A stretch of 30,436 nt of DNA, from the IMG/VR virus record IMGVR_UViG_2693429557_000019, one strand, 5' to 3'. Below, one piece after another: positions 5,413 to 28,025 of this stretch. A model generated the notes under the pieces. That model was not told the DNA's origin. It searched no databases and saw only the letters and a program-made list of their open reading frames with translations. Position 1 is the stretch's first letter. Every line of letters begins with the position of its first letter. Origin of the DNA: a virus (lineage: Duplodnaviria; Heunggongvirae; Uroviricota; Caudoviricetes). The translations under genes and the position numbers were made by a program.

Positions 5413-6603
5413 TTAATTGCTGTTAACCGAGGTGACCAGATTTGCCAGGTATTTATCGGTAATACGCTGGCGCAGGGTCAGGTTTTCAAGAGGAGGCACC
5501 GGGGTATAGTCGTAGTCGATATACAGTTTTCCGGCCTTGAGGGTTTCCGCATCGTTGGATTCTTCGCTGAACCAGCAGGTCGCATCCACGATATAGCCGT
5601 TTGTTTTCAGCTCACGGAATTTGGCATTGATGCCGTCAACGATGTCGCGAATCAGCGTTGCGGTGATGGGCTTGTCCACCGCCCACATGTGCGCCTCAGC
5701 CATCGTGTCGGCCAGCACCTGCGCGGTGCGGGTGTAGTTTTCAAAGAGGAACAGCGGGTCATCAGAGCAGGTACGGTTACCCCAGAAGCGGAAACCGTCA
5801 CGGCGAATCAGCGTTGTGACGCCTGACTCGTTAAGCAGGTCAGCATCGGTGCCGGACTCCTGCAAATCCCAGAATACGGACGCGCTGATGCCGGTAACAC
5901 CGTTCACCCCGACGTTGGACAGCGTTTTATGCCAGCCCTGCTCCTGGTCGATTTTAGCGCGCAGACCCAGCGCACGGGCGGTGGCATACGCGGTGGCGGT
6001 GGTACTGGCGACCGTATCCCATGCGAGGAAATCCGGCCAGATGACCATCAGCTCACGCTGGCTGAAATTCTGACGGTAGGCTTTCACCTCGGAAACGGTC
6101 TTACAGCCCCATGCGCTGATATACCCGAAAGCGCGCAGCTTCTGACAGACTGATGCCAGTGCAACAGCCACCTCTTTGGTGTCCAGTCCCGGCACGCCGA
6201 GAATACGCGGTTTAACACCGGTTACCGACTCCGCCGCCAGCAGGGCTTTCAGTCCGGTGTACTGACCGTTTTCGTCGGTGGTGCCGATGATATTGGAAAC
6301 GGTCTGCGCGAGTTTCGTTTCCTCGTCGTCGCCGGTGCCGTCTTCCACACGCACGACAACGGTGACCGGTTTTGACTGGTCGGCGATGGCCTGCAACGAT
6401 GCCGCCAGCGTGCCTTTTTTACCGGCCTTTGCAATTGCGCTCTGCACATTGGTAATCAGCACCGGTTTATTGAGGGGGAAGGTTTCCGCATCCGCATCGC
6501 TGGCCGTGCAGACCATGCCGACAATGGCAGTGGATACGGTGGAAATGACGCGGGTGCCGTCGTTAATCTCCAGCACCTGCACGCCGTGATGATAGTCACT
6601 CAT
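5413..6603 (-). CDS. FI: Contractile tail sheath protein FI, 396 aa
   Basis: 396-aa ORF at the head of the FI-FII-E-T-U-D operon; size matches P2 gpFI. Confidence 0.9.
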   Translation of the reverse strand: MSDYHHGVQVLEINDGTRVISTVSTAIVGMVCTASDADAETFPLNKPVLITNVQSAIAKAGKKGTLAASLQAIADQSKPVTVVVRVEDGTGDDEETKLAQTVSNIIGTTDENGQYTGLKALLAAESVTGVKPRILGVPGLDTKEVAVALASVCQKLRAFGYISAWGCKTVSEVKAYRQNFSQRELMVIWPDFLAWDTVASTTATAYATARALGLRAKIDQEQGWHKTLSNVGVNGVTGISASVFWDLQESGTDADLLNESGVTTLIRRDGFRFWGNRTCSDDPLFLFENYTRTAQVLADTMAEAHMWAVDKPITATLIRDIVDGINAKFRELKTNGYIVDATCWFSEESNDAETLKAGKLYIDYDYTPVPPLENLTLRQRITDKYLANLVTSVNSN

Positions 6604-6726
6604 CCGTTTAACTCCGTGGTTAATGGGTGCAACTATTTTCTGTTGGGCAGTGCATGAGACGCTATTTGACCTGGCTGGTCAGTGGATGAAACAACAGATA
6701 AAGAAAATGCGGGCAATTCGCCCGCA

Positions 6727-6744
6727 TGTCCTGATTTGTACACA
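6727..6744. promoter_or_regulatory. Candidate Ogr-binding dyad TGT-N12-ACA of the late promoter for the FI operon
   Basis: Sequence tgtcctgatttgtacaca has TGT and ACA separated by 12 nt. It lies about 125-140 bp upstream of the FI start on the minus strand, the arrangement described for P2 late promoters. Only the dyad was seen; -10/-35 elements were not mapped. Confidence 0.4.
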
Positions 6745-6942
6745 CTCATTTTCCGACTGACAGTTTACATAGCCCAAACGCTATCAAATCTGACAGCCTG
6801 CTATGAGCGAAAAGCGTTAAATCTCACGATATCTGCTACCGGGAAAAATTTCGATTATCTTCGATGGGAACTTTGATAATGTAGTAAATGCCATTTTCAG
6901 CGATCACTTTTCAAGCGTGTGTAAATGATTAATGTTAAAAAA

Positions 6943-6972
6943 TTGACTTCACTGAAATAAGGTTGCTAGTAT
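6943..6972 (+). promoter_or_regulatory. Candidate sigma70 promoter for the cargo gene (TTGACT-N18-TAGTAT)
   Basis: TTGACT at 6943..6948 and TAGTAT at 6967..6972 in an AT-rich stretch about 40 bp upstream of the cargo ATG. A Shine-Dalgarno-like taaggaa lies about 8 nt before the ATG at 7014. Confidence 0.45.
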
Positions 6973-7013
6973 TTTTGGAGCAACCATTAATGTTTTTTAT
7001 TTAAGGAATGTAA

Positions 7014-8432
7014 ATGACATACGCACTGATTGATAATTCAACTCTAACTGCAGTCCAAAGAATCGAGGGGAAAGTAAAAACAAGATCGAAGGACTCAGTA
7101 GATACAGACATAATAGCATTTGAGAACTATATACAGTCTATTTTGTTCTATGATCACGTTATCGCGGTTGATGATTATATTCCAGAGTACCGTGGGAGTA
7201 GGATTTCAAGTTTCAGAGAGATATTATTTCTTGATAAAGCACAATATGGGTTGGATGAAATTGAAAGTGAAGCAAAAAAAATATCTGATGCATTGAAACC
7301 TAAAATTCGTGGTGGAACATTTGTTAATGACGATTTTAAAAAACTAATTGAACTTCTTCAGACACATATCATATGTACATGGGACATTAGTTCAAGTGTT
7401 TATCATCTAACACTGAAGAACTTATCTGATGGAGGTAAGGAGTTTGAAAAATATGGTAACATTGCTGCTGCCATTTTTTCAGAACTGCGTGATGCTGCTG
7501 AGTCTGGTAATAGAACAAATGGCGATGTTGAACTTCTCGATCGATTTGGCAACCCTATTCGCAAGGGGTACAAAGTTCCCGGAGCAAAATGGGGGGATGG
7601 CACATCTGCTGGTGAAGCATCAGATGCAATCAAAGCATTCGTGGCTTCGCTTGTATGGCTGGCTAATCGGGCAGTATTTTATTCTCTCACAGCTAAGTAC
7701 CTTCAAGCAGATACTTTTTTATATCCATTACGTCAGGCGTATCAACAGACATATTTAAGCCAAAACTGTCAGTATGGTTTTGACTATGCTAAACATATTG
7801 TAGAAAACTTTTCCACTTCGTTAAGTCATGATCTCATTGATATTCATTCTGGTGGTAAAGCTGTAGCAACAGCAACTTCGCTTCCTTTATTTTCGGCATG
7901 GCTCGCAAAAGAAACTGGTGATCCAAGTTGTATTGTTGAAGCTGCTTATAACATAAGGGACAACAACGAATTTGTAAGGGCCCGTGAGAAAATGCGAGAA
8001 ATAAAGCGCTTGTTTGATGAAAATGAATTGCCTCAAGCTAATAAGTCAGTAAGAGCATTGCTTACTGAAGTATCGAAAGAATCAGATTATATTCGAACTA
8101 AGTATGGGCTCAAGACTAGACAAGGTGTACCTGTAACTAAGCTTGTACATGTATACAATACTGTTGCGGCTATTAATTCCCTTCCGAAACTACCGACCTT
8201 TAATTTTAAAGTTAAAGTTCCTGATTTCTTATATGATCTTAAAAAACCCAAGGGGTTTCGTGCTCTCTATCGAAATTTGACTAATGATCTTTCTACTGTG
8301 TGGTCGTTAGGAGAAGCTCGAGATATTCTTGGAAGTAAAGTTGTGATAGATAATCATGCAAGAATTTACAGTCCGAAGCATGAAGAACCGCGTTTCAAAA
8401 ACTCTCATTCCCCATATAAGAGCCCGATGTAG
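7014..8432 (+). CDS. Hypothetical 472-aa protein, AT-rich cargo gene at the FI/G (Z/fun) variable locus
   Basis: Long uninterrupted ORF on the strand opposite both flanking phage operons. Visibly lower GC than flanking phage DNA. Own promoter-like elements and RBS. I recognise no catalytic motif and no resemblance to a P2 protein. Confidence 0.8.
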   Translation: MTYALIDNSTLTAVQRIEGKVKTRSKDSVDTDIIAFENYIQSILFYDHVIAVDDYIPEYRGSRISSFREILFLDKAQYGLDEIESEAKKISDALKPKIRGGTFVNDDFKKLIELLQTHIICTWDISSSVYHLTLKNLSDGGKEFEKYGNIAAAIFSELRDAAESGNRTNGDVELLDRFGNPIRKGYKVPGAKWGDGTSAGEASDAIKAFVASLVWLANRAVFYSLTAKYLQADTFLYPLRQAYQQTYLSQNCQYGFDYAKHIVENFSTSLSHDLIDIHSGGKAVATATSLPLFSAWLAKETGDPSCIVEAAYNIRDNNEFVRAREKMREIKRLFDENELPQANKSVRALLTEVSKESDYIRTKYGLKTRQGVPVTKLVHVYNTVAAINSLPKLPTFNFKVKVPDFLYDLKKPKGFRALYRNLTNDLSTVWSLGEARDILGSKVVIDNHARIYSPKHEEPRFKNSHSPYKSPM

Positions 8433-8546
8433 CTTAAGAAAAAGACACGCCCACCTTGTGCGTCTACTTCTGGCACAGAGCGGACTCTCAGATTAGGCTT
8501 TACTCTGTGCCATAGATATGTAAGCTCACACCAGAGCTCATACAAC

Positions 8547-9074
8547 TTATTGCGGCATTTCCGGCCATTCAGGATTTGCAGGATCCACACGACTGACCAG
8601 AACACTGTAGCGTTCCCATGCCTCCAGTCGACTGCGCTCCTCATCTGTTGCCATATTCAGCCTGACAGCGCGCTCCAGCGGCAAAATCACGGATTCAGCA
8701 TCTGCAAGAAGTCTGGCTTTCCGATTTTCTGCCTGCTGCTGCAATTCCTCTGCCGTATAAATTCGTTTAATCACTGTACAGTCCTTAAACATCCAGTTCC
8801 CTGAAATGTCCGCCCGTCGGTTAGCAGTAATATCCGGCACTTCAACAACACTTAATCCATCCGGTCTGATAGCTGTCACATCCTTTTCCACATAGCGGAT
8901 AATATTATCTTTGTCGTACGCTATTTTTATCGTGTCATCAGCAAAATACTTTTGTTCTTCGTACCAGTTCTTACCATCTTCTGAAAAAAACCAGACAACA
9001 TCAAAGTCCTTTGTCAATTGATATTGTTCAACCGTTTTTGGATTACCTGCCGTTATATTTATCAAATGCTGCAT
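8547..9074 (-). CDS. G: Tail fiber assembly protein G, 175 aa
   Basis: 175-aa ORF immediately downstream of tail fiber gene H; size and position match P2 gpG. Confidence 0.85.
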
Positions 9075-9077
9075 AAA

Positions 9078-11396
9078 TTATACCTGTGCCACGTTATACC
9101 AAGTCCCGTTAATGTATTTCTGCACCGGTCTGTAATATACGCCACCAATGTTATCGGCAGAGTTTGAGCCGGTATCCTGAACAATAATGCCGGAATATAC
9201 ACACCCGGACGGTGCCTGATGTGTCCATGTCATACCATTGTTCGCAGGTTTGTATGTGGCAGCACCACCAAGCCGGATATCCCGGACATAGCGTGAATCA
9301 AAGTTGCCATAGTTAGATGGTGATACCTGCCCGTTAACAGCAAAAGTGATGCTGTTATCTGTATTTCTCTGACTGTAAAAATGCCAGCCTGCATCATCAC
9401 CTAATTCAGCCACCACAGGACGACTTGAGTTTCCCCACAAATTGAATGCGGCTTCCTTCGTGGATGTATTGCTGCTGCTGACCGTGAACTTTTTCCCGCT
9501 ACCGGCACGTACTTTGGTACTTGAGACAATATCACCTGTAACACTCAGGCCATGCCCCATTGACACTCCGCCATTGGCGTTATTGATAGTCAGCGGTCTT
9601 AAGCCGTTCCATGTCCCAAATTTATCGCCAGAGGCCGTCAGCATTAAATATGTGCTGCCGCCATCATTCCTGATAAAGAATCCATAATTGCCATAAGCAA
9701 TGCGCAGACCATTAGCACTGAGTGATGTAATTTCACCTCTTGAACGGAGACCATAAGCGGAGCTGAGTGATAATTCTTCCTGAGCGTCATTGTTTCCTGT
9801 CGCCCAGCGAATTACCCCGCCCTGAACTGTTTCATGCCAGATAGTATCTCCTTCTCCACCACGAAACTTTCTGAGATATTTTTTGCCGCCTCTGGTGCCT
9901 GAACATAAGGCCGTAGACATATAGGCATTCTGGCTTCCGCCATCCTGATTAATCGTTCCGGTCATTGAGTCGCCCTGACGATTCCAGTCACGACGCCAGC
10001 CGGGGGAGTAGCCGTCCCCATGATTTATGTAAGTGAATTGCGCGCTGGTTGTACCGCCACCGCTTGATGTTGTTGGCGTGGTCACTCGGATAGTGATTGC
10101 AGATTTAGTTCCCATGACCTCGACGACACAACCAGCCAGGTGGATATCACCACATCCGGTATCCGTAATGATTTTGTTATTTGCATATGACCAGGAGCCT
10201 TTGCACATCCAGTACGGATGATTAAATGCACCACGGGAATCCAGCCATTCAATAAACTGAGCGGTTGTCCAGTTTCCGGCTTCAGTGCTCAAAGCGCCGC
10301 TATAAGCACGACAGGCACCGATATTTTTCGTGAAGGTATCCTTTCCCGGAATATCCGCACCGTTCTGATCTTTCTGAAGACGTTTTTCAGCATTGTCATA
10401 GGCAGACTTCACTGCTTTTGGCGTTGCGGCCAGCGTTTCAGAATCGCTGTTGATGGCACTACTTAGCTGGACAAGACCTTTTCGCGCTGTGGTGGCATCC
10501 TGTGCAGTGTATTTCCCGTTAGCAAGGTCATACGCTGTCTTAACCGCCTTTGGTGTTGCCGCAAGCGTTTCAGAATCGCTGTTGGTGGCGCTACTGAGCT
10601 GGACAAGACCTTTTCGCGCTGTAGTGGCGTCCTGTGCAGTGTATTTCCCGTTAGCAAGGTCATACGCTGTCTTAACCGCCTTTGGCGTTGCCGCAAGCGT
10701 TTCAGACGTGCTGTTGGTGGCACTACTGAGCTGGACAAGACCTTTTCGAGCTGTGGTAGCGTCCTGTGCGGTATATTTCCCGTTAGCAAGGTCATAGGCG
10801 GCCTTTACCGCTTTCGGCGTTGCGGCCAGTGTTTCAGACGTGCTGTTGGTCGCACTGCTTAACTGAGTAAAACCTTTTGCGGTCAGCGAGGCGTCCGGGT
10901 GACGTCGTGACTGTTCGTGCTCTGCAATTTTGTCATCAACGTAATCCTGTGTCGCCATCACCGTTGTGGTGTCAATGGTCAGCTCCACCGAGGCCACACT
11001 GCTGACGATGATGACCATGCGACAGGTCTGCGAACGCCCTGAGCCTTCGGCAAGAGCTGGCTTATAACTTTCGGCCATGTTCGCCACGGCAATTAACGTT
11101 CCCGCATCATCGTACAGGCCAAGCTCACGCATCCAGAAACCGCCCACCTCCGGCGGAATAACCAGCTCTGCGATAATATAATTACTGTTTCGTTTGTCCT
11201 GGCTGATTTTGTTCAGCGTATGTCGCCAGACTTCGTGGATAAGCCCGGTCTGTCCGGCATCCGGGACAGGCAATTTACCACCGCCATCCCCGACGGCCAT
11301 CGTGGTAATGTTGACCTTCCGCCCTCCCGGTGCGGTTGCCGCTGCCAGCTTTGCTGCACCGGCAGTGGTGATAACGGTTCTGAATTTTGTGCTCAT
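9078..11396 (-). CDS. H: Tail fiber protein H, 772 aa
   Basis: N-terminus MSTKFRTVITTAGAAKLAAA is P2 H-like as I recall it. Contains tandem 44-aa repeats (GLVQLSSATNS...TPKAVK.AYD) of the phage tail-fiber repeat type. Positioned between I and G. Confidence 0.9.
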   Translation of the reverse strand: MSTKFRTVITTAGAAKLAAATAPGGRKVNITTMAVGDGGGKLPVPDAGQTGLIHEVWRHTLNKISQDKRNSNYIIAELVIPPEVGGFWMRELGLYDDAGTLIAVANMAESYKPALAEGSGRSQTCRMVIIVSSVASVELTIDTTTVMATQDYVDDKIAEHEQSRRHPDASLTAKGFTQLSSATNSTSETLAATPKAVKAAYDLANGKYTAQDATTARKGLVQLSSATNSTSETLAATPKAVKTAYDLANGKYTAQDATTARKGLVQLSSATNSDSETLAATPKAVKTAYDLANGKYTAQDATTARKGLVQLSSAINSDSETLAATPKAVKSAYDNAEKRLQKDQNGADIPGKDTFTKNIGACRAYSGALSTEAGNWTTAQFIEWLDSRGAFNHPYWMCKGSWSYANNKIITDTGCGDIHLAGCVVEVMGTKSAITIRVTTPTTSSGGGTTSAQFTYINHGDGYSPGWRRDWNRQGDSMTGTINQDGGSQNAYMSTALCSGTRGGKKYLRKFRGGEGDTIWHETVQGGVIRWATGNNDAQEELSLSSAYGLRSRGEITSLSANGLRIAYGNYGFFIRNDGGSTYLMLTASGDKFGTWNGLRPLTINNANGGVSMGHGLSVTGDIVSSTKVRAGSGKKFTVSSSNTSTKEAAFNLWGNSSRPVVAELGDDAGWHFYSQRNTDNSITFAVNGQVSPSNYGNFDSRYVRDIRLGGAATYKPANNGMTWTHQAPSGCVYSGIIVQDTGSNSADNIGGVYYRPVQKYINGTWYNVAQV
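10392..10898 (-). repeat. About 3.8 tandem copies of a 132-bp (44-aa) near-identical repeat inside gene H
   Basis: The string gtttcag recurs at 10435, 10567, 10699 and 10831 (period 132 bp) with near-identical flanking sequence. Protein shows four repeats of AQDATTARKGLVQLSSATNS.SETLAATPKAVK.AYDLANGKYT. Confidence 0.85.
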
Positions 11397-20261: not shown

Positions 20262-22034
20262 ATGACCATCACCACAGACACCACTCTTTTACACGACCCG
20301 CGTCGTCAGGCGGCGCTGCTGTACTGGCAGGGGTTTTCCGTGCCGCAGATTGCCGCCATGTTGCAGATGAAACGCCCGACGGTGCAGAGCTGGAAACAGC
20401 GCGACGGCTGGGACAGTGTTGCCCCCATCAGCCGTGTCGAAATGAGTCTGGAAGCGCGGCTGACCCAGCTCATCATCAAACCGCAGAAAACCGGCGGTGA
20501 CTTCAAGGAAATTGACCTGCTCGGACGCCAGATTGAACGACTGGCACGGGTAAACCGCTACAGCCAGACCGGCAACGAGGCAGACCTTAATCCGAACATC
20601 GCTAACCGCAACAAAGGCGGGCGTCGCAAACCGAAAAAGAATTTTTTCAGTGACGAGGCCATCGAAAAGCTGGAGCAGATTTTCTTTGAGCAGTCTTTCG
20701 ACTATCAGTTGCACTGGTATCGTGCCGGGCTTGAGCACCGCATCCGCGATATCCTGAAATCCCGCCAGATTGGCGCGACGTTTTATTTTTCCCGCGAGGC
20801 GCTGCTGCGCGCCCTGAAAACCGGCCATAACCAGATTTTTCTGTCGGCCAGTAAAACGCAGGCGTATGTGTTCCGTGAATACATCATCGCCTTTGCTCGT
20901 CTGGTTGACGTTGACCTGACCGGTGACCCGATTGTCCTGGGCAATAACGGCGCAAAACTGATTTTTCTCGGCACCAACTCCAACACCGCACAGAGCCATA
21001 ACGGCGACCTGTACGTCGACGAGATTTTCTGGATCCCGAATTTTCAGGTACTGCGTAAGGTGGCATCAGGTATGGCCTCACAGAGTCACCTGCGCTCGAC
21101 CTATTTCTCCACCCCGTCCACGCTGGCGCACGACGCCTACCCGTTCTGGTCGGGTGAACTGTTCAACCGGGGACGCGCCAGCGCCGCCGAACGTGTGGAA
21201 ATCGACGTCAGTCATAACGCCCTTGCCGGTGGTCTTCTCTGTGCGGACGGCCAGTGGCGGCAGATTGTCACCATTGAGGACGCCCTGAAAGGCGGCTGCA
21301 CATTGTTCGACATTGAGCAGCTCAAACGCGAAAACAGCGCCGACGATTTTAAAAACCTGTTCATGTGTGAATTTGTTGACGACAAGGTATCGGTGTTCCC
21401 GTTCGAGGAGCTGCAACGCTGCATGGTCGACACGCTGGAAGAATGGGAAGACTACGCGCCGTTTGCCGCAAATCCGTTCGGCTCCCGCCCGGTATGGATT
21501 GGTTACGACCCGTCACACCGTGGCGACAGCGCCGGATGCGTGGTGCTGGCACCGCCGGTGGTGGCCGGTGGCAAATTCAGAATACTTGAGCGTCACCAGT
21601 GGAAAGGCATGGACTTTGCCACCCAGGCGGAGTCCATCCGCAAACTCACCGAAAAATACAACGTCGAATACATCGGTATTGATGCCACCGGCCTCGGTGT
21701 CGGCGTGTTCCAGCTCGTGCGCTCGTTCTATCCCGCCGCGCGCGATATCCGCTACACGCCGGAAATGAAAACCGCAATGGTGCTCAAGGCCAAAGACGTC
21801 ATCCGCCGTGGCTGTCTGGAATATGACGTCAGCGCCACCGACATCACCAGCTCGTTCATGGCTATCCGCAAGACCATGACCAGCAGCGGACGCAGTGCCA
21901 CCTATGAGGCCAGCCGCAGCGAGGAAGCCAGCCACGCCGACCTCGCCTGGGCAACCATGCACGCCCTGTTAAATGAGCCACTCACCGCCGGTATCAGCAC
22001 TCCGCTGACATCCACCATTCTGGAGTTTTACTGA
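20262..22034 (+). CDS. P: Terminase ATPase (large) subunit P, 590 aa
   Basis: ORF trimmed to the Met at MTITTDTTLL, giving 590 aa as I recall for P2 gpP. Divergent from O and followed by Q, as in P2. Confidence 0.9.
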   Translation: MTITTDTTLLHDPRRQAALLYWQGFSVPQIAAMLQMKRPTVQSWKQRDGWDSVAPISRVEMSLEARLTQLIIKPQKTGGDFKEIDLLGRQIERLARVNRYSQTGNEADLNPNIANRNKGGRRKPKKNFFSDEAIEKLEQIFFEQSFDYQLHWYRAGLEHRIRDILKSRQIGATFYFSREALLRALKTGHNQIFLSASKTQAYVFREYIIAFARLVDVDLTGDPIVLGNNGAKLIFLGTNSNTAQSHNGDLYVDEIFWIPNFQVLRKVASGMASQSHLRSTYFSTPSTLAHDAYPFWSGELFNRGRASAAERVEIDVSHNALAGGLLCADGQWRQIVTIEDALKGGCTLFDIEQLKRENSADDFKNLFMCEFVDDKVSVFPFEELQRCMVDTLEEWEDYAPFAANPFGSRPVWIGYDPSHRGDSAGCVVLAPPVVAGGKFRILERHQWKGMDFATQAESIRKLTEKYNVEYIGIDATGLGVGVFQLVRSFYPAARDIRYTPEMKTAMVLKAKDVIRRGCLEYDVSATDITSSFMAIRKTMTSSGRSATYEASRSEEASHADLAWATMHALLNEPLTAGISTPLTSTILEFY

Positions 22035-23068
22035 TGAGCAAGAAAAAAGGGAAAACACCGCGACCTGCGGCAAAAACAATCACCGCCAGCGCCCCGAAAA
22101 TGGAAGCATTCACCTTTGGTGAGCCGGTGCCGGTACTCGACCGCCGTGACATTCTGGATTACGTCGAGTGCATCAGTAACGGCAGATGGTATGAGCCGCC
22201 GGTCAGCTTTACCGGTCTGGCAAAAAGCCTGCGTGCTGCCGTGCATCACAGCTCACCGATTTACGTCAAACGTAATATTCTGGCTTCAACGTTTATCCCG
22301 CACCCGTGGCTTTCCCAGCAGGATTTCAGCCGTTTTGTGCTGGATTTTCTGGTGTTCGGTAATGCGTTTCTGGAAAAGCGTTACAGCACCACCGGTAAGG
22401 TCATCAGACTGGAAACCTCACCGGCCAAATATACCCGTCGTGGCGTGGAGGAGGATGTTTACTGGTGGGTGCCGTCCTTCAACGAGCCGACAGCCTTCGC
22501 GCCCGGCTCCGTGTTTCACCTGCTGGAGCCTGATATTAATCAGGAGCTGTACGGCCTGCCGGAATATCTCAGCGCCCTTAACTCTGCATGGCTGAATGAG
22601 TCGGCCACGCTGTTCCGCCGCAAGTATTACGAAAACGGCGCACATGCCGGATACATCATGTACGTCACCGATGCCGTGCAGGATCGCAACGATATCGAAA
22701 TGCTTCGCGAAAACATGGTTAAGTCGAAAGGCCGCAATAACTTTAAAAATCTGTTTCTCTATGCCCCACAGGGGAAAGCCGACGGCATTAAAATTATCCC
22801 GCTCAGTGAAGTGGCAACGAAGGACGATTTTTTTAATATCAAAAAAGCCAGCGCCGCTGACCTGCTGGACGCGCACCGCATCCCCTTTCAGTTGATGGGG
22901 GGCAAGCCGGAGAACGTCGGGTCGCTGGGTGATATTGAGAAAGTGGCAAAGGTCTTTGTCCGCAATGAGCTTATCCCGTTACAGGACAGGATCCGCGAGA
23001 TAAACGGCTGGCTCGGTCAGGAGGTCATCCGCTTTAAAAACTACTCACTGGACACTGACAACGGCTGA
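22034..23068 (+). CDS. Q: Portal (capsid vertex) protein Q, 344 aa
   Basis: 344-aa ORF; start overlaps the P stop (ATGA). Followed by a terminator and the cos site, as at the P2 left end. Confidence 0.9.
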   Translation: MSKKKGKTPRPAAKTITASAPKMEAFTFGEPVPVLDRRDILDYVECISNGRWYEPPVSFTGLAKSLRAAVHHSSPIYVKRNILASTFIPHPWLSQQDFSRFVLDFLVFGNAFLEKRYSTTGKVIRLETSPAKYTRRGVEEDVYWWVPSFNEPTAFAPGSVFHLLEPDINQELYGLPEYLSALNSAWLNESATLFRRKYYENGAHAGYIMYVTDAVQDRNDIEMLRENMVKSKGRNNFKNLFLYAPQGKADGIKIIPLSEVATKDDFFNIKKASAADLLDAHRIPFQLMGGKPENVGSLGDIEKVAKVFVRNELIPLQDRIREINGWLGQEVIRFKNYSLDTDNG

Positions 23069-23254: not shown

Positions 23255-23439
23255 CGCCCGCTTCATGGGGCGGTTTTAATGCAGTTGCATGAACACTCCA
23301 AGAGCACGCCAGCGCTAGTGATAACTAACAATAAAAGCGACTTCTGACGCATGCAAATCCATGCACATGATGGCATTTTTCATGATCTATGCGGTATGCT
23401 ATCCGCTTCAATTTTTAACACTTGTTAAGGGAACTAGAC

Positions 23440-24582
23440 ATGGACATTATTGATTTAAAATCTCAACTAGAAAATGAAGATAATGCCAAGAAAAGAGCAG
23501 AGTTGCTTGCTCAGCTAGAGGTGATAAAGCAAAACGCTGAAGAGCAAATTCGTGCTGAGCAAAAGGATGTGGATTTTGAGACCAAAGAATTTACCGTTGA
23601 GTTATTAGTTAATAAGTATCATAACGGATTAGAGGATGATACTAACGAACTCTTTGTTCCTGATTATCAAAGGGATTTTGTTTGGAGTGAAAAAAGACAA
23701 TCAAAATTGATAGAGTCTTTGATTTTGGGTTTTCCTATACCATATATATTTATAGCAGATGTTCTCTCCGAAGATCCCGATTTAGATGGGCGAATTGAGA
23801 TTGTTGATGGCTCACAACGAGTTAGGACTATACACGCTTTTATCCAAAATGAATTAGTTTTACAAGACCTGAAATCTTTAGACGTCCTTAATGGTTTCAA
23901 ATTCCAAGATTTACCATTATCACGTCAACGTCGTTTCATGAGAATTCCTGTCCGCGTTATAGAATTGAGTTCTAAATGCAATGAAGAAACCCGTAGAGAT
24001 CTTTTTGAGCGTATTAACTCTGGCAGCGATATATTGAAAGATATGGAAGTCCGTAAAGGATCAGAACTTGGTTCAACAAATTTATATACACAGGTTATTA
24101 AGCCATGCTCAACAATACCTAAATTTAAAGAATTAGCACCTTTATCTCAGACTAAAGAAAAACGAGATGAACGGTTAGAATTTACATTAAGATTCTTTGC
24201 CTACGTAGATAAGTACAAGAACTTTGATCATTCCGTACGGGATTTTCTAAATGACTATATGTCAGAAAATCGAGATATAGACGAAACTAAACAAAACTCA
24301 ATGAAACAAGAGTTTGCTAATGTTCTATCTTTTGTTGAAAACTATTTCCCAGCAGGATTCAAGAAAACTATTACTGCAAAATCTACACCTCGAGTTAGAT
24401 TCGAATCTCTCGCTGTTGGCGCAGCACTTGCATTACGTGAAGTCCCTGACCTTGTTCCCAAGAACTTAGATTGGCTAAGCTCAGAAGAATTCAAACGATT
24501 GACCACTTCCGACGGAGCTAATAGTCGCGTGAAGGTAATTGAACGAATTGAATATGTTCGGGATAAATTATTAGAGGATTAA
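23440..24582 (+). CDS. DUF262 / ParB-like domain protein (GmrS-like N-terminal domain, no recognisable HNH/DUF1524 nuclease), 380 aa
   Basis: Contains VPDYQRDFVWS and IVDGSQRVRTI, which fit the (I/V)PxYQRxxxW and DGQQR signatures of the DUF262 ParB/Srx-fold domain. N-terminal coiled-coil. AT-rich. Start taken at the ATG at 23440, 8 nt after an aaggga Shine-Dalgarno (the ORF track begins at a TTG at 23422). Confidence 0.85.
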   Translation: MDIIDLKSQLENEDNAKKRAELLAQLEVIKQNAEEQIRAEQKDVDFETKEFTVELLVNKYHNGLEDDTNELFVPDYQRDFVWSEKRQSKLIESLILGFPIPYIFIADVLSEDPDLDGRIEIVDGSQRVRTIHAFIQNELVLQDLKSLDVLNGFKFQDLPLSRQRRFMRIPVRVIELSSKCNEETRRDLFERINSGSDILKDMEVRKGSELGSTNLYTQVIKPCSTIPKFKELAPLSQTKEKRDERLEFTLRFFAYVDKYKNFDHSVRDFLNDYMSENRDIDETKQNSMKQEFANVLSFVENYFPAGFKKTITAKSTPRVRFESLAVGAALALREVPDLVPKNLDWLSSEEFKRLTTSDGANSRVKVIERIEYVRDKLLED

Positions 24583-24583
24583 C

Positions 24584-25264
24584 ATGGATCGTTTTCGTGA
24601 GGATTTTGACGAAAGGTCAGGAGAGATCTTGGCCTATTTGGATCTTTTGAAATTTATTGAGTATGCCGGTGCAGAACTGATATCAGCTGATGATAAAGAA
24701 CATAAGTTCTCCATTACTGCTCAATCACGAAAAACTCTAAAGGGAGCAGTATATATACTGTTATATAACCTCATTGAATCAACAATGAGAGAAGCTATCT
24801 GCCTTATTCATGAGACTATTTATGATAGAAACGTAGAATTTGACAAACTCAGGAAAAATCTCAGGTCAGAAATATTAAAAAGATTAAAAAATGAATCTGT
24901 AAATGTTGAAAGTTTAGTTAATCACCTTACCAAAGGTATATCTTGCGGTATATCTTATGGCACGTTCAACAAAAAGAAAATATTCTCAGGAAATATTGAT
25001 AGAGAGGAAATCAAAGAAAAATCGAAAATATATGGTTTTTCTACACATTCCGATTACACTCACACTAAACATGGTGAAAAATTAGCCACTGTTAAACAAC
25101 ATCGTAATGATTTATCTCATGGCAATGTATCATTTGCTGAGATTGGAAAAAATGTTTCATATCAGGACTTAGAGAATATTTCATTAGAAGTAATCGCCTA
25201 TCTTGATGCTATCGTGAATAATATAGAGCACTATATAAATAATAATGAATATTTAGAACAATAG
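24584..25264 (+). CDS. Putative HEPN-domain protein (Rx4H motif), 226 aa
   Basis: Translationally coupled to the upstream gene: TAA at 24580..24582 and ATG at 24584, with agagga 6-11 nt upstream. C-terminal region carries HRNDLSHG, fitting the HEPN R-x4-6-H motif. AT-rich. The HEPN call is motif-based inference only. Confidence 0.7.
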   Translation: MDRFREDFDERSGEILAYLDLLKFIEYAGAELISADDKEHKFSITAQSRKTLKGAVYILLYNLIESTMREAICLIHETIYDRNVEFDKLRKNLRSEILKRLKNESVNVESLVNHLTKGISCGISYGTFNKKKIFSGNIDREEIKEKSKIYGFSTHSDYTHTKHGEKLATVKQHRNDLSHGNVSFAEIGKNVSYQDLENISLEVIAYLDAIVNNIEHYINNNEYLEQ

Positions 25265-25270
25265 TTATAA

Positions 25271-25294
25271 GGCCTGTAAAGCAGGCCATTTTAT
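25271..25294. terminator. Candidate bidirectional terminator between the convergent HEPN gene and the methyltransferase gene
   Basis: Stem ggcctg / caggcc with a 5-nt loop, followed by attttat on the plus strand and an A/T-rich stretch on the other side. Sits exactly between the two convergent stop codons. Confidence 0.5.
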
Positions 25295-26319
25295 CATTCT
25301 AAATGGTTCTTGATTGATTGCCCAATTGCTTTTCCTAGTTCCACAGGAACAGCATTACCTATCATTTTCCCAATACTTCTTATAACAAACTTGTTTTTGT
25401 CTTCTACAAAAATATAATCCATCGGGAAAGTTTGCAATAAAGCAGCCTCTCTAAGAGAAATCGCTCTATGCTGTTCTGGATGTCCAAAACGCCCATTCCC
25501 GAAACCATAACAAAGAGTTGTAATTGTTGGACTTGGCTTATCCCAAGACATGCGCCCATATACACTAGCATACCCTTTACCGCTGGATTTCATATGACAA
25601 GCGGCAACCAACTCTTTCGGCCAGTCCTTCCATGTACCACCAGGAACAGAGTGTATAATTCTTTTTTTATTAATCGGATTTAATTTACTGGCTCTATGTA
25701 ATATATCATTTGGATCTGTTTGGCCATCTTCTAATGGAGGAAGATTTCCTATTGCATCTCTAACTGTTTTCAAAATAACATCGTCACGTTTTACTAACTC
25801 AATCGCCCCCAATTTTGAGGCCAACAATACATGACGGGAACGGTTTTGTGGGATTCCATATTCGACACAATCAATCTTAGACGCCCAAACATAATAGCCC
25901 AACTTTAACAATGAATTATAAAAATCATTATAAACTTTATGTTTAGTTACATCAGGAACGTTCTCCATTGTTACGATTTCTGGAGATACTTCGCGAATTA
26001 AACGTTCGAACTCATAAAGAAGAGGCCATTTTTTATCATCAGCCTTATCTTTTCCTTGAGTATATTTTGAAAAAGGTTGGCAAGGTGCGCATCCTGCCAA
26101 TACTTTTACAGACGCATCACCATAAAGCCTCAGCAGTTCCTCTTTTGTTACTTTAGCGATATCTTGCTCAATAAACTTAGATTTATTGTTTCTTTCATAG
26201 GGAAACCTACATTCCCCCTCAAGGTCAATGCCTGCAACGACATCAAGCCCCGCAAGCTGCAAACCATGAGTTAATCCGCCAGCACCACAAAAAAGGTCTA
26301 TCACCTTTACAGTCATCAC
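25294..26319 (-). CDS. DNA (cytosine-5)-methyltransferase, 341 aa
   Basis: Conserved C5-MTase motifs seen in the translation: FCGAGG (motif I, AdoMet binding), GCAPCQPFS (motif IV with catalytic Pro-Cys), ENVPDV (motif VI) and QNRSR (motif VIII). AT-rich. Confidence 0.9.
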   Translation of the reverse strand: MMTVKVIDLFCGAGGLTHGLQLAGLDVVAGIDLEGECRFPYERNNKSKFIEQDIAKVTKEELLRLYGDASVKVLAGCAPCQPFSKYTQGKDKADDKKWPLLYEFERLIREVSPEIVTMENVPDVTKHKVYNDFYNSLLKLGYYVWASKIDCVEYGIPQNRSRHVLLASKLGAIELVKRDDVILKTVRDAIGNLPPLEDGQTDPNDILHRASKLNPINKKRIIHSVPGGTWKDWPKELVAACHMKSSGKGYASVYGRMSWDKPSPTITTLCYGFGNGRFGHPEQHRAISLREAALLQTFPMDYIFVEDKNKFVIRSIGKMIGNAVPVELGKAIGQSIKNHLE

Positions 26320-26402
26320 TCACTCCAAATCTATACGATACTCAGTATACATCCCTTTCTACAAAATCTCGAGGCCTAACTTATAAACTCATATTTATTG
26401 AG

Positions 26403-27896
26403 TTAACGCTTCACTGAGTTTGACTCTAATACTGTTGAGAATCCCGACCACTCATCAGCGAGCGGGTAAGTGAATTTTTTCCCGTCATAATTTACGGTTG
26501 CCCCACGCGCCAGCACCTCAAGCTCCCATCGCTGCGGCCTGATACCGTTCTGAGCAAGGTCAACGCGGATACGGGTAATTTGCATTCGTTCCGACCGGGT
26601 CAGTCTGGCCGATGGCGCTATTTCATGCGGTTTTAACGGGCTTCCGTTTCTTTGCTGACGGTTTGGTCTTCTCAGTCCGTGTTTTAATGCACCTCTGAGC
26701 GCCCTCACAACCTCCGGGTCATTCCATTCGATAACACCGTCATCTACCAGATTAAGCACTGCTGCGGCGTGCTCAGAAGGTGTGGGAGCCGGTAACGAAG
26801 TATCACCACCAGTGAGCTTTCCACAGTTATTGACAGGACTCCGAGGCGCGGCGATGCCGCTTTTTAAAGTCAAAGGCTCAACGACCGGCACTTTCGGAAC
26901 AATGCGCCAGTCCGTCGTTCTGGTGATATGAATATGACGCGCGCCGAGATGCGGCGCGTAAATGCCGACCACTCTCTCGACTTCTTCCTCGTACTCGTTA
27001 ACTTCATCCGACGGACTACGGGCGACCCTGACAGTCTGACAATCGCGCGGGACATTTGCCCCACCCTGCGCGCTGATATACAGCGCAAAATCACCACTGT
27101 CTGCGGCGGCGCGTGCAGCCTCGACGCGCTCGTCAAACTCATCAGCAATGCTGACGCCGCGAGGCAATTTGCGTAGTTCACGGTAAGCCCCCATTGTCGG
27201 CAGGCCAACCGTTTTAAATTGCGGAATGCGCCACGTTGACGCCCATGCGGTAACAGCCGCGGCAGTATCTTTCAGCGGTCTGCCGCTATCGTTATCGAGC
27301 TGCCCATCCAGTGCATAGCCGTCGATATTTTTTGAGATGTATTTCGCGATATACCCCGCAGCACCGCCCCGATTAAGATGTTTTGCCTGAAAACGGTTTC
27401 GCGCAGCTCCTCTTTCGTCGCCATCCTCTTTGAGCGCGTAGCGACGCATGATTTCGATAATCTGGTTACGCTGGCGTGGATTACAAAAAAGCATCATATG
27501 CCAGTGCGGCGTTCCGTCGTGGTGTGGCTCGACGACTCGCAAACCGTAGACCTGTAAATCATTATCCTTGAATGCCGTGCGCATCAGGCTCCAGATACGG
27601 CAGAGATAACGCTGCGCATCCTTTGGATTAAATGCCTCATCGTTCCAGCCGTGATTTAGCTGGACGGTTTTACTTTCGCCTTTTCCAACCTGACGTGTCG
27701 GGTGATACTTTGACGGCGCGGTCAGCGTGATAAACATCCCCACATCACCTTCTGCGGCGGCGTAACGCTCAATACCGGCAATGGTGTTCATCAGCTCCAT
27801 CCGGCGAATTTCAGGATTAGAAATACTGCCCATCACCTTACTGATAAGGTCGATGCGCTCGCCTGTTTCCCTGTTTTCGAGATCACACGATTTAAG
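26403..27896 (-). pseudogene. A: Replication initiation protein A (rolling-circle HUH endonuclease), 5'-truncated at the IS21-family junction
   Basis: ORF carries the HUH motif (TPHWHMMLF) and a Tyr/Lys motif (YIAKYISKN) of Rep-type nickases. It is 526 aa against about 761 aa that I recall for P2 gpA. The first roughly 28 codons of the ORF-track ORF (to 27983) are read through IS-end tandem repeats and are not genuine gene A sequence. Junction placed near 27897 from memory of the P2 gpA sequence. Confidence 0.7.
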
Positions 27897-27910
27897 ATGC
27901 AAAATGGCAT

Positions 27911-28025
27911 CTGAATCGATCGCAGTTTGGCATTCGAATCGATCATGATTTGGCATCCATCTCCGATCACAGTTTGGCATCACAATCGATCACGATTTGG
28001 CATACTTCCGATCATTGATTGGAAT
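27911..28025. repeat. Five tandem 22-24 bp direct repeats (consensus about cgatcaNNRtttggcat), probable multiple terminal repeats of the IS21-family left end
   Basis: Units end in ttggcat at 27933, 27956, 27980 and 28003, and in ttggaat at 28025. A diverged sixth copy (aaaatggcat) ends at 27910. The array lies immediately upstream of istA. Confidence 0.6.

What the first reader, a model, noticed from the sequence alone, without database searches (positions are those of the whole stretch)
7014..8432. Single 472-aa AT-rich cargo gene of unknown function at the FI/G (Z/fun) hotspot
Between tail sheath gene FI and tail-fiber assembly gene G, the position of the P2 Z/fun conversion locus, lies one long AT-rich ORF on the opposite strand to both phage operons. 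It has a near-consensus promoter (TTGACT-N18-TAGTAT) and a good RBS, which suggests expression in the lysogen. I find no Walker, nuclease, TIR, RT or other familiar motif, so it may be an uncharacterised single-gene defense or conversion function. P2-like prophages are known to carry single-gene anti-phage systems at this locus, which is the basis for prioritising it.
Basis: partly seen in the sequence, partly recalled or inferred. Interest (0 to 1): 0.8.

Follow-up and report, generated by a model that had tools for sequence, protein, structure and literature searches.

The report
Orphan cargo gene in P2 defence hotspot
A P2-like prophage carries, at a site where such phages keep anti-phage genes, a single well-conserved 472-aa gene from a widespread but rare protein family that matches no known family or solved structure, which makes it a good untested candidate for a new kind of phage-defence protein.

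Summary
Window 7014..8432 (+) is an intact 472-aa gene inside a ~1.65-kb AT-rich cassette (about 6817..8462). The cassette lies between tail sheath FI and tail-fibre assembly G of a P2-like prophage, the position of P2 Z/fun, which the literature treats as a second P2 defence hotspot.

The protein is a true orphan. It has no Pfam, NCBIfam or PADLOC match, even when 92 diverse members are scanned one by one. It has no PDB sequence or profile match. A model with pTM 0.84 found no significant structural neighbour, and a second model with the same topology reached pLDDT 86.

The family has about 324 representatives at 50% identity in at least nine phyla. Full-length members are about 437–485 aa (most 455–475) and none is fused to another domain. 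dN/dS is 0.06–0.17. The gene is more AT-rich than its host almost everywhere. It has no conserved partner gene or RNA.

It recurs as lone cargo in unrelated prophages, once next to BstA, and in a phage-plasmid lysogeny module. It also recurs in islands with RM, MksBEF, HEPN-Toprim or PLD-helicase genes.

Best reading: a stand-alone defence or conversion protein. An invariant acidic cluster in its Rossmann-like N-terminal domain, plus a set of invariant arginines, suggests a metal-dependent enzyme acting on nucleotides or nucleic acids. Both the function and the mechanism are untested.

The parts
6817..8462 (+). Variable AT-rich cargo cassette (about 1.65 kb) of the Z/fun hotspot: about 197 bp of upstream region, the ORF, and 30 bp of tail.
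   Evidence: Homology to P2 and to E. coli KK19-02 (which carry different cargo) stops at about 6810-6816 and resumes at about 8463-8466. GC is 0.37. 1017 of 5426 E. coli genomes match the flanks; only 7 match the cargo.
7014..8432 (+). 472-aa orphan protein gene (WP_000220361, PHROG 13435).
7014..7424 (+). N-terminal Rossmann-like alpha/beta domain (residues about 1-137). It carries the conserved acidic cluster D7, D32, E37, D47, D53, D54 plus R16 and R63.
   Evidence: AF2 secondary structure: b1 3-6, a1, a2, b2 48-52, a3, b3 71-73, a4, b4 97-99, a5, hairpin 119-137. Conservation.
7434..8375 (+). Helix-rich middle and C-terminal part (residues about 141-454) with invariant or near-invariant W215, R219, Y223, P238, R240, P291, R324, R420, G433.
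8376..8429 (+). Conserved C-terminal tail ending in [FWY]-K-x-P-M-COOH. In the better model it forms strands 455-457 and 469-471.
   Evidence: 159 of 310 full-length members end in KxPM. pLDDT is about 94-95 for residues 460-472 in model 2.
6943..6972 (+). Sigma-70-like promoter candidate, TTGACT-N18-TAGTAT, with a TGn extended -10.
   Evidence: Not above chance expectation for the region. Only partly conserved in the Lonsdalea and Pantoea copies.
7002..7007 (+). Shine-Dalgarno sequence AAGGAA.
   Evidence: Read directly from the sequence. The equivalent GAGGAA is conserved in distant homologs.
6787..6814 (.). Left arm of an imperfect inverted repeat in the conserved P2 flank. Together with the right arm it brackets the cassette.
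   Evidence: 28 nt, 75% complementary to 8467-8494. The core AATCTGACAG(T/C)C is a perfect 12-mer inverted repeat in P2 and a 10-mer in KK19-02.
8467..8494 (.). Right arm of the same inverted repeat, in the conserved P2 flank. It overlaps the loop of the local hairpin 8471-8480 / 8503-8512.
6707..6727 (-). Conserved terminator-like hairpin in the flank between the cassette and the sheath gene.
   Evidence: Conserved in P2 and KK19-02.
5413..6603 (-). Tail sheath gene FI, the conserved left neighbour.
8547..9074 (-). Tail fibre assembly gene G, the conserved right neighbour.

Best explanation
The ORF is a stand-alone accessory ('moron') gene carried in the Z/fun hotspot of a P2-like prophage. 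It is transcribed on its own, against the direction of the late tail operons.

It most likely acts in the lysogen as a single-protein anti-phage or anti-mobile-element defence, with sensing and effector functions in one polypeptide.

Inferred mechanism: the N-terminal Rossmann-like alpha/beta domain holds a cluster of nearly invariant acidic residues at the C-terminal ends of strands b1 and b2 and on helix a2 (D7, D32, E37, D47, D53, D54). This is the arrangement expected for a divalent-metal site. A set of invariant arginines (R16, R63, R219, R240, R324, R420) would bind phosphates. The protein would therefore be a Mg2+/Mn2+-dependent enzyme acting on a nucleotide or a nucleic acid. It would be kept inactive until infection and then stop phage replication, probably at a cost to the cell (abortive infection).

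Shown: the gene is real and constrained. It sits at the hotspot. It is an orphan, single-gene and horizontally mobile. It recurs as prophage and island cargo.

Inferred: the defence role, the catalytic nature of the acidic/arginine core, and the abortive outcome.

The confidence of 0.5 applies to the defence role. The specific enzymatic mechanism deserves only about 0.2.
For: Location: the gene lies between FI and G, where P2 carries Z/fun. Published work calls this a defence-enriched P2 hotspot. Cargo there is hypervariable: 1017 E. coli genomes share the flanks and only 7 share this cargo. It assorts independently of the other hotspot's cargo.

Single gene:
- No neighbour cluster is shared by more than 5 of about 44 loci.
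- The 149 nearest neighbours hit 130 different Pfam families.
- There is no conserved upstream DNA or RNA outside Enterobacterales and no Rfam hit.
- No member among 324 representatives is fused to another domain.

Mobility and selection:
- The gene's GC is below that of the host flanks in nearly all hosts.
- dN/dS is 0.06-0.17.
- The same cassette occurs outside P2 in Lonsdalea and Pantoea.
- Copies 89-90% identical occur in three non-P2 viral contigs.

Defence-type company:
- BstA Abi gene adjacent in L067 and a DNA methyltransferase adjacent in L066.
- The lysogeny module of a C. kluyveri phage-plasmid.
- MksBEF.
- HEPN-Toprim, CcdAB and an SMC system.
- PLD, helicase and RelA/SpoT on an integrative element.
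- Type I RM, type IV REase, MADS, PbeA and ParE among nearest neighbours.

Possible toxicity: TTG start codons in 14 loci; truncated copies in Shigella and Pantoea; rarity, with 45 loci in 185,579 species genomes.

Catalytic core: conservation analysis over 92-192 members down to 19% identity, mapped on confident models.
Against: There is no experimental datum of any kind.

There is no homology to any validated defence protein, so the defence call rests on guilt by association.

Roughly half of the inspected contexts show no defence gene nearby: Acinetobacter, Methylorubrum, Rhodopseudomonas, Lonsdalea, and the Pseudomonas syntenic loci.

The Z/fun hotspot is 'mixed purpose' and also carries non-defence cargo.

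The fold searches did not support any nuclease, PIN or Toprim assignment. The best Foldseek probabilities were 0.41 (IspD-like nucleotidyltransferase) and 0.16 or less (SDR, GT-A), all non-significant. D124 and H118 are not conserved in distant members.

The family is unusually well conserved for a defence gene: 72-73% identity between the E. coli and the Desulfotalea or Nitrospira copies.

The promoter is not statistically distinguishable from chance.
Confidence: 0.5

Rival explanations
1. A non-defensive lysogenic-conversion or host-fitness enzyme. It would be a cytoplasmic nucleotide-utilising transferase (nucleotidyl- or glycosyl-transferase-like) that modifies a host molecule to the benefit of the lysogen, with no direct antiviral role.
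For: The hotspot also carries non-defence cargo (Rousset 2022 notes partition systems and CDT at the other P2 hotspot). The weak, non-significant local Foldseek similarities are to nucleotide-binding Rossmann and GT-A-like folds: IspD at prob 0.41, and viral GT2 proteins at prob 0.12-0.16. A D-D-Y motif follows strand b2. Conservation is high and many contexts are plain chromosomal ones.
Against: No Pfam glycosyl- or nucleotidyl-transferase model is hit by any of 92 members, even at E<=10. There is no linked metabolic or envelope gene in any context. The distribution is rare, patchy, AT-rich and typical of a mobile element, and the gene is adjacent to BstA, RM and Mks genes. This pattern fits conflict genes better than metabolic ones.
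Confidence: 0.2
2. A counter-defence or inter-element competition factor that serves the phage, for example an inhibitor or modifier of a host defence, or a factor directed against satellites such as P4, rather than one protecting the host.
For: P2 hotspots occasionally carry anti-defence genes: 28 P2 elements have anti-RM or anti-CRISPR genes. The gene travels in several unrelated temperate phages.
Against: It is oriented against the late operons and has its own promoter-like element, as expected for expression in the lysogen. Many homologs sit in non-phage chromosomal or island contexts where a phage-serving function makes little sense. At 54 kDa it is large for a typical anti-defence protein (my own knowledge).
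Confidence: 0.1
3. A selfish gene. It could be the mobility enzyme (a novel recombinase or transposase) of a small element that inserts into hotspots, or an addiction-type toxin that stabilises whatever carries it.
Against: There is one copy per genome wherever it was examined. Outside Enterobacterales only the ORF and its RBS are conserved, not any terminal sequence. The inverted-repeat arms belong to the P2 flanks and are present whatever the cargo. In this window the repeat is not significant on its own. There is no DDE, HUH, Tyr or Ser recombinase signature and no Pfam hit. No antitoxin-like partner is conserved.
Confidence: 0.08
4. A phage structural or morphogenetic accessory, such as a tail or fibre chaperone, that merely happens to sit among the tail genes.
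For: Its position among tail genes. The hotspot also swaps tail-fibre modules.
Against: It is on the opposite strand and AT-rich, and it is absent from about 99% of P2-like prophages that share the flanks. It is absent from all 50,697 deposited phage genomes. Most homologs are in non-phage contexts. Its PHROG has no structural annotation.
Confidence: 0.02

Closest known systems
P2 fun(Z) and other cargo of the P2 Z/fun hotspot, including the three Vassallo 2022 PD systems found there
   Same: Same genomic slot between FI and G, with the same conserved flanks. A small AT-rich cassette with its own expression signals. The hotspot is documented to hold anti-phage genes.
   Different: There is no sequence or profile similarity to the P2 ORF at this locus (hhalign probability 0.6%) or to any PADLOC model, including the PD-T4, PD-lambda and PD-T7 families. 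In this window the gene points against the tail genes, whereas the P2 ORF points with them.
Single-gene prophage-encoded abortive-infection proteins, e.g. BstA and the DUF4238 protein of the P2 old/tin hotspot (Rousset 2022)
   Same: One gene of about 300-500 aa carried as cargo by unrelated temperate phages. A homolog sits directly beside a BstA gene in viral contig L067. It is also found outside prophages in islands.
   Different: No homology to these proteins. No DNA-binding or KilA-N-like domain is detectable. No experimental phenotype exists. The family is rarer and much more conserved in length and sequence.
Metal-dependent phosphoesterase or nucleotide-binding Rossmann-like domains (PIN-like, Toprim, GT-A/nucleotidyltransferase, SDR-type)
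   Same: The predicted b-a-b three-layer topology of residues 1-137, with conserved Asp/Glu at the C-terminal ends of b1 and b2 and on the following helix. The weak Foldseek hits are to Rossmann-type folds.

Membership tests
Cargo of the P2 Z/fun hotspot (defined by position) | Lies between tail sheath FI and tail fibre assembly G, inside flanks conserved among P2-like phages that carry unrelated cargo. | tested here: met
Cargo of the P2 Z/fun hotspot (defined by position) | Compositionally foreign (AT-rich) and present in only a minority of phages that share the backbone. | tested here: met
   GC 0.37 against about 0.57. The cargo is in 7 of the 1017 flank-matching E. coli genomes.
Homolog of P2 Fun(Z) | Detectable sequence or profile similarity to the P2 ORF at this locus. 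| tested here: not met
   hhalign probability 0.6%, E 0.1.
Any known or candidate defence family in PADLOC-DB 2.0.0 (includes Doron, Gao, Millman, Rousset and Vassallo systems and the PDC candidates) | HMM match of the protein or of its relatives. | tested here: not met
   0 families at E<=10 for the query. Nothing recurrent among 92 diverse members. Systems described after 2023 were not testable with these libraries.
Any Pfam-A (2025) or NCBIfam (2026) family | HMM match. | tested here: not met
   The per-member scan of 92 sequences at E<=10 gave at most 3 of 92 for any family. Precomputed Pfam is '-' for about 240 listed homologs.
Single-gene (stand-alone) system | No partner gene or RNA conserved next to it across lineages, and no domain fusions. 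| tested here: met
Anti-phage defence system (functional class) | Confers resistance to phage when expressed. | not testable with these tools
   Only association evidence is available.
Anti-phage defence system (functional class) | Enriched next to known defence genes or on mobile elements. | tested here: inconclusive
   Defence neighbours are present in several independent loci but absent in about half. No formal enrichment statistic could be computed.
PIN-like / Toprim metal-dependent nucleases | Fold match plus the family's conserved acidic residues. | tested here: not met
HEPN RNases | A conserved Rx4-6H motif in an all-helical domain. | tested here: not met
   The only R-x4-H (R460...H465) lies in the tail, and H465 is not conserved in distant members. 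The Csm6 Foldseek hits have probability <= 0.06.
GT-A glycosyltransferase / nucleotidyltransferase fold | Significant fold match and a DxD motif placed after the fourth strand. | tested here: inconclusive
   The best local probabilities go to IspD (0.41) and viral GT2 proteins (0.12-0.16), all non-significant. The DDY motif follows b2, not b4. No Pfam GT hit.
Transposase / self-mobile element | Terminal repeats that travel with the gene, multiple copies, and a recombinase signature. | tested here: not met
   The inverted-repeat arms belong to the P2 flanks. Only the ORF is conserved outside Enterobacterales. There is a single copy per genome. There is no recombinase domain.

The most novel reading that the evidence does not exclude
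The gene founds a previously undescribed enzyme family, with a fold that has no recognisable solved relative, and provides phage or mobile-element immunity as a single polypeptide through a mechanism not yet seen in known defence systems. It would spread as a ~1.7-kb cassette among P2-like and unrelated prophages, phage-plasmids and genomic islands across at least nine bacterial phyla.
Probability: 0.3. Interest if true: 0.8.

Novelty: new variant of a known kind. Interest (0 to 1): 0.6.

Why it matters
P2 hotspots have already yielded several new immune systems, and most of their cargo is still 'hypothetical'. This cargo differs from the typical unknown in several ways:

- It is a large, compact, strongly constrained single gene.
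- Its structure model is confident, yet no sequence, profile or fold relative was found in the libraries available here.
- It has a clearly defined invariant core that can be mutated.
- It is distributed across phyla and across kinds of mobile element.

That makes it a clean and cheap experimental target: one 1.65-kb clone. If it is active, it would add a new protein family, and possibly a new biochemical activity, to bacterial immunity. If it is inactive, it would help show that the Z/fun locus is not purely a defence locus.

Tried and rejected
1. Known-family assignment. Pfam, NCBIfam, PADLOC and PHROGs on the protein gave only PHROG 13435, of unknown function. Scanning 92 diverse members individually against Pfam (E<=10) and PADLOC (E<=1) gave no recurrent hit.

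2. PDB by sequence. A single sequence and two profiles (A1, A7) gave only coiled-coil noise.

4. Bridging to annotated relatives. The exhaustive profile search returned only family members and fragments. The search with divergent members revealed an alphaproteobacterial 459-aa branch, also unannotated.

5. Homology to P2 Z/fun: rejected.

6. Hidden partner. Neighbour clustering, upstream DNA alignment and Rfam all gave nothing. The helicase next to the gene in L069 and L070 is confined to those two related phages. A ~120-aa upstream ORF is confined to two Bacteroidota loci.

7. HEPN, PIN, Walker and recombinase motifs are not conserved.

8. Literature. No paper mentions WP_000220361. It does not appear in the held DefensePredictor supplements, some of which were cut when stored. 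Brenes & Laub 2025 and Nilsson 2004 are not held.

9. Inverted repeat as evidence of self-mobility. The arms belong to the P2 flanks, and in this window the repeat is not significant on its own.
Full report
1. THE OBSERVATION

Window 7014..8432 (+) is an intact ATG-initiated ORF of 472 aa. It lies in the most AT-rich stretch of the left half of the window, with GC 0.35-0.42 against about 0.57 in the adjacent tail genes. At the cassette's composition the chance of 472 stop-free codons is about 6e-16, and 1000 shuffles never gave an ORF longer than 240 aa.

The neighbours are the tail sheath gene (5413-6603, -) and the tail-fibre assembly gene (8547-9074, -). In E. coli 89-3156 the locus is 100% identical and RefSeq annotates the ORF as WP_000220361, 'hypothetical protein'. 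Phage P2 has a different 299-aa ORF in the same slot.

But the region has no more promoter-like sites than shuffled sequence (4 against 5.7 +/- 2.3). The -10 is poorly conserved in the closest foreign copies of the cassette.

2. THE CASSETTE AND THE HOTSPOT

Homology to P2 and to an E. coli P2-like prophage with other cargo (KK19-02) ends at about 6810-6816 and resumes at about 8463-8466. The variable unit is therefore about 6817-8462. It consists of roughly 197 bp of upstream sequence, the ORF and 30 bp.

Of 5,426 complete E. coli genomes, 1,017 match the flanks but only 7 carry this cargo. No deposited phage genome carries it: the DNA search found flank-only matches in 67 records, and tblastn found zero hits in 50,697 records.

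The window's cargo at the other P2 hotspot is found in nine E. coli genomes, and none of them is among the seven that hold the 472-aa gene. The two hotspots therefore assort independently.

Published work describes this slot as the Z/fun hotspot and as a second defence-enriched locus of P2-like phages. It contained three of the Vassallo et al. systems plus fun (PMC9519451; iLund4u preprint 10.1101/2024.10.15.618418; PMC13586616). The iLund4u authors also stress that the locus is 'mixed purpose'.

3. THE PROTEIN IS AN ORPHAN

Pfam-A, NCBIfam and PADLOC give nothing even at E<=10. The only PHROG match is phrog_13435, 'unknown function'. PDB sequence searches with the protein and with two family profiles give only coiled-coil noise.

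I scanned 92 members spanning 19-74% identity one by one. No Pfam family was hit by more than 3 of them, and no PADLOC family by more than 1. All sources call the protein hypothetical. No paper in the library mentions the accession, and it is not in the held supplements of DefensePredictor.

AlphaFold2 with 50 homologs gave pLDDT 75 and pTM 0.84. With 92 diverse homologs it gave pLDDT 86 and pTM 0.88 with the same topology.

- Foldseek/PDB: best E 0.088, TM <= 0.25.
- BFVD: best E 0.27.

'No known fold' is therefore provisional.

4. THE FAMILY

A word-indexed search found 282 relatives. An exhaustive HMM search of 1.84 billion cluster representatives found 324 at E<=1e-3. Full-length members are about 437-485 aa (most 455-475), and none is fused to another domain. 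A divergent 459-aa branch fills the Alphaproteobacteria.

One genome per GTDB species yielded only 45 loci among 185,579 species. They span Gamma- and Betaproteobacteria, Desulfobacterota, Nitrospirota, Cyanobacteria, Verrucomicrobiota, Chloroflexota, Spirochaetota, Bacillota, Bacteroidota and Armatimonadota.

The gene is more AT-rich than its flanks in nearly every host, for example 0.43 against 0.70 in Methylorubrum. Its dN/dS against the E. coli copy is 0.13-0.17 for close relatives and 0.06 for Pectobacterium, in gapless 1,416-nt alignments. It is thus a strongly constrained gene that moves horizontally and is rare everywhere.

Fourteen loci start with TTG behind a conserved GAGGAA. Copies in Shigella and Pantoea are truncated or split. 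Both points are compatible with a product that is costly to express, but that is inference.

5. SINGLE GENE

Clustering the four genes on either side across about 44 loci gave no cluster present in more than 5 loci, and those 5 are syntenic Pseudomonas chromosomes. The 149 nearest neighbours hit 130 different Pfam families.

Upstream DNA is conserved only among the Enterobacterales copies of the cassette, and Rfam finds nothing. A helicase directly upstream in two divergent viral contigs is limited to those two related phages. So is a ~120-aa upstream ORF in two Bacteroidota loci.

6. THE COMPANY IT KEEPS

Prophage and mobile-element cargo:
- Copies 89-90% identical sit in three viral contigs that share no other protein with this phage.
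  - In L067 the gene is next to a BstA abortive-infection gene (PHROG E 2e-101).
  - In L066 it is behind a DNA methyltransferase.
  - In L065 and L066 it is in front of a DinI-like moron.
- In a 58.6-kb Clostridium kluyveri plasmid, a 38.5%-identical homolog lies between the serine recombinase and the cI-like repressors. The plasmid has the same length as an IMG/VR viral contig, so it is probably a phage-plasmid.

Genomic islands:
- MksBEF in Desulfotalea.
- HEPN-Toprim, CcdAB and a CTD1/MComp1/SMC system in Pectobacterium.
- PLD, a superfamily-1 helicase and RelA/SpoT on a recombinase-bearing element in Mesorhizobium.
- Transposases in Tenderia.
- Among the nearest neighbours overall: type I methyltransferases (3), type IV restriction enzymes (2), MADS components (2), PbeA (2) and ParE (2).

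Against this, the Acinetobacter, Methylorubrum, Rhodopseudomonas and Lonsdalea copies are lone insertions among ordinary genes. The association with conflict genes is therefore recurrent and independent, but not universal. I could not compute a formal enrichment.

7. WHAT THE PROTEIN LOOKS LIKE

Residues 1-137 form a b-a-(a)-b-a-b-a-b-a unit followed by a long hairpin at 119-137. This is a Rossmann-like three-layer topology. The rest of the protein is dominated by long helices (141-163, 204-230, 318-336, 339-364) interspersed with strands.

Across 92-192 members the conserved positions are:
- invariant: P238, R240, P291, R324;
- at least 85-90% conserved: D7, T10, R16, G19, D32, E37, L44, D47, D53, D54, Y55, R63, F67, W123, S128, L132, W215, R219, Y223, L236, R420, G433.

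The acidic residues sit at the C-terminal ends of b1 (D7) and b2 (D53/D54) and on helix a2 (D32, E37). This is where Rossmann-type enzymes bind metal and phosphates. Together with six conserved arginines, this is my basis for proposing a metal-dependent enzyme that acts on nucleotides or nucleic acids. That is an inference from the pattern, not a result.

The extreme C-terminus is a family hallmark. Of 310 full-length members, 159 end in K-x-P-M-COOH, and the alphaproteobacterial branch ends in R-P-A-x-L. In the better model the tail is ordered (pLDDT about 95) and forms strands 455-457 and 469-471. It is therefore probably a structural or regulatory latch rather than a degron.

Specific families were considered and not supported:
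- PIN/Toprim: no fold hit, and the acidic quartet is not conserved.
- HEPN: no conserved Rx4-6H, and Csm6 hits have probability <= 0.06.
- GT-A/nucleotidyltransferase: best local probabilities 0.41 and 0.16, with no Pfam hit.
- Recombinases: no signature.

These rest.

8. VERDICT

What remains open is the function itself. I give about 0.5 to a stand-alone defence role, and much lower confidence to the proposed enzymatic mechanism. The other readings get about 0.2 for a non-defensive conversion enzyme, 0.1 for a phage-serving counter-defence or competition factor, 0.08 for a selfish or mobility gene, and 0.02 for a structural role.

The kind of thing, single-gene cargo in a known P2 hotspot, is known. 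The protein family is not. Interest is 0.6. A specialist expects unknown genes in this hotspot. This one is an unusually clean, conserved, single-gene orphan with a confident structure model and a defined invariant core, and it can be tested directly with one clone.

9. SIDE OBSERVATIONS

(a) The old/tin-position hotspot (about 23400-26350) carries three genes: a GmrSD_N/NsnA-like protein (PD-T4-2_A-like), a HEPN_MAE_28990 protein and a C5-cytosine methylase.

(b) The cassette is bracketed by an imperfect inverted repeat that lies in the conserved P2 flanks (6787-6814 and 8467-8494). Its core, AATCTGACAGTC, is a perfect 12-mer inverted repeat in P2 and a 10-mer in KK19-02. It is degenerate, and not significant on its own, in this window.

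(c) The copies in Lonsdalea and Pantoea are not in P2-like prophages, yet they retain about 15-20 bp of P2-flank sequence at each end. The breakpoints fall inside both repeat arms. Whether this reflects a recombination site or illegitimate excision is unresolved.

Noticed in passing
window 23422-26319: A second AT-rich island lies between the portal gene (22034-23068) and the GpA replication gene (26403-27983), which is the P2 old/tin hotspot. It carries a GmrSD_N/DUF262 protein (PADLOC NsnA 1.7e-54, PD-T4-2_A 2.5e-35), an adjacent HEPN_MAE_28990 protein and a divergent C5-cytosine DNA methylase. This trio occurs in 9 complete E. coli genomes, none of which has the 472-aa gene.
   Followed up: partly
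window 6787-6814 and 8467-8494: An imperfect 28-nt inverted repeat (75% complementary) in the conserved P2 flanks brackets the variable cassette exactly. Its core is a perfect 12-mer (AATCTGACAGTC / GACTGTCAGATT) in P2 and a 10-mer in KK19-02, but has only 7 perfect bases here. It could be a recombination or regulatory site of the hotspot. I could not read Nilsson et al. 2004, whose title links P2 hotspots to site-specific recombination.
   Followed up: partly
L012 9784-11468 (Lonsdalea quercina); L027 9781-11471 (Pantoea sp. Eser): The same 1.68-kb cassette, including its upstream region and about 15-20 bp of P2-flank-like sequence at each end, is inserted in non-P2 contexts. In Lonsdalea it sits among cytochrome b561, CbpA/DnaJ and hexapeptide-transferase genes. 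In Pantoea it sits next to an integrase and a TraC remnant, and the gene there is split into 120-aa and 239-aa pieces (a pseudogene).
   Followed up: partly
L013, L014, L015, L003 and 10 other loci, at the start of the homolog: Fourteen homologs start with TTG. Zobellella, Halomonas, Nitrospira and Acinetobacter share a nearly identical TTGAGGAAATAAATTGAC ribosome-binding/start region despite belonging to different orders or phyla. This suggests recent transfer, or selection for weak translation initiation.
   Followed up: no
L049 9633-9998 and L050 2797-3159 (Bacteroidota): A ~120-aa ORF abuts the start of the divergent homolog in two Bacteroidota loci. Its N-terminus (YGLIDIDNFYSYN...) resembles the first strand motif of GGDEF/nucleotide-cyclase domains. 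That resemblance is my own reading and was not tested.
   Followed up: no
window 9078-11396 (-): The tail-fibre gene contains three to four tandem copies of a ~45-aa unit (...ATPKAV K.AYDLANGKYTAQDATTARKGLVQLSSATNS...), visible in the translation.
   Followed up: no
L071 / L068 (Clostridium kluyveri NZ_CP018336.1, 58,581 bp): A record deposited as a plasmid has the same length as an IMG/VR viral contig, so it is probably a phage-plasmid. Its homolog of the 472-aa gene (38.5% identity) sits between the serine recombinase and a set of cI-like HTH regulators.
   Followed up: partly
Protein cluster of P0001 (Shigella sonnei / S. boydii members): Several Shigella copies of the protein are annotated as 140-424-aa proteins. 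Some of these come from complete chromosomes, which suggests pseudogenisation in Shigella. Others are marked partial, at contig ends.
   Followed up: no
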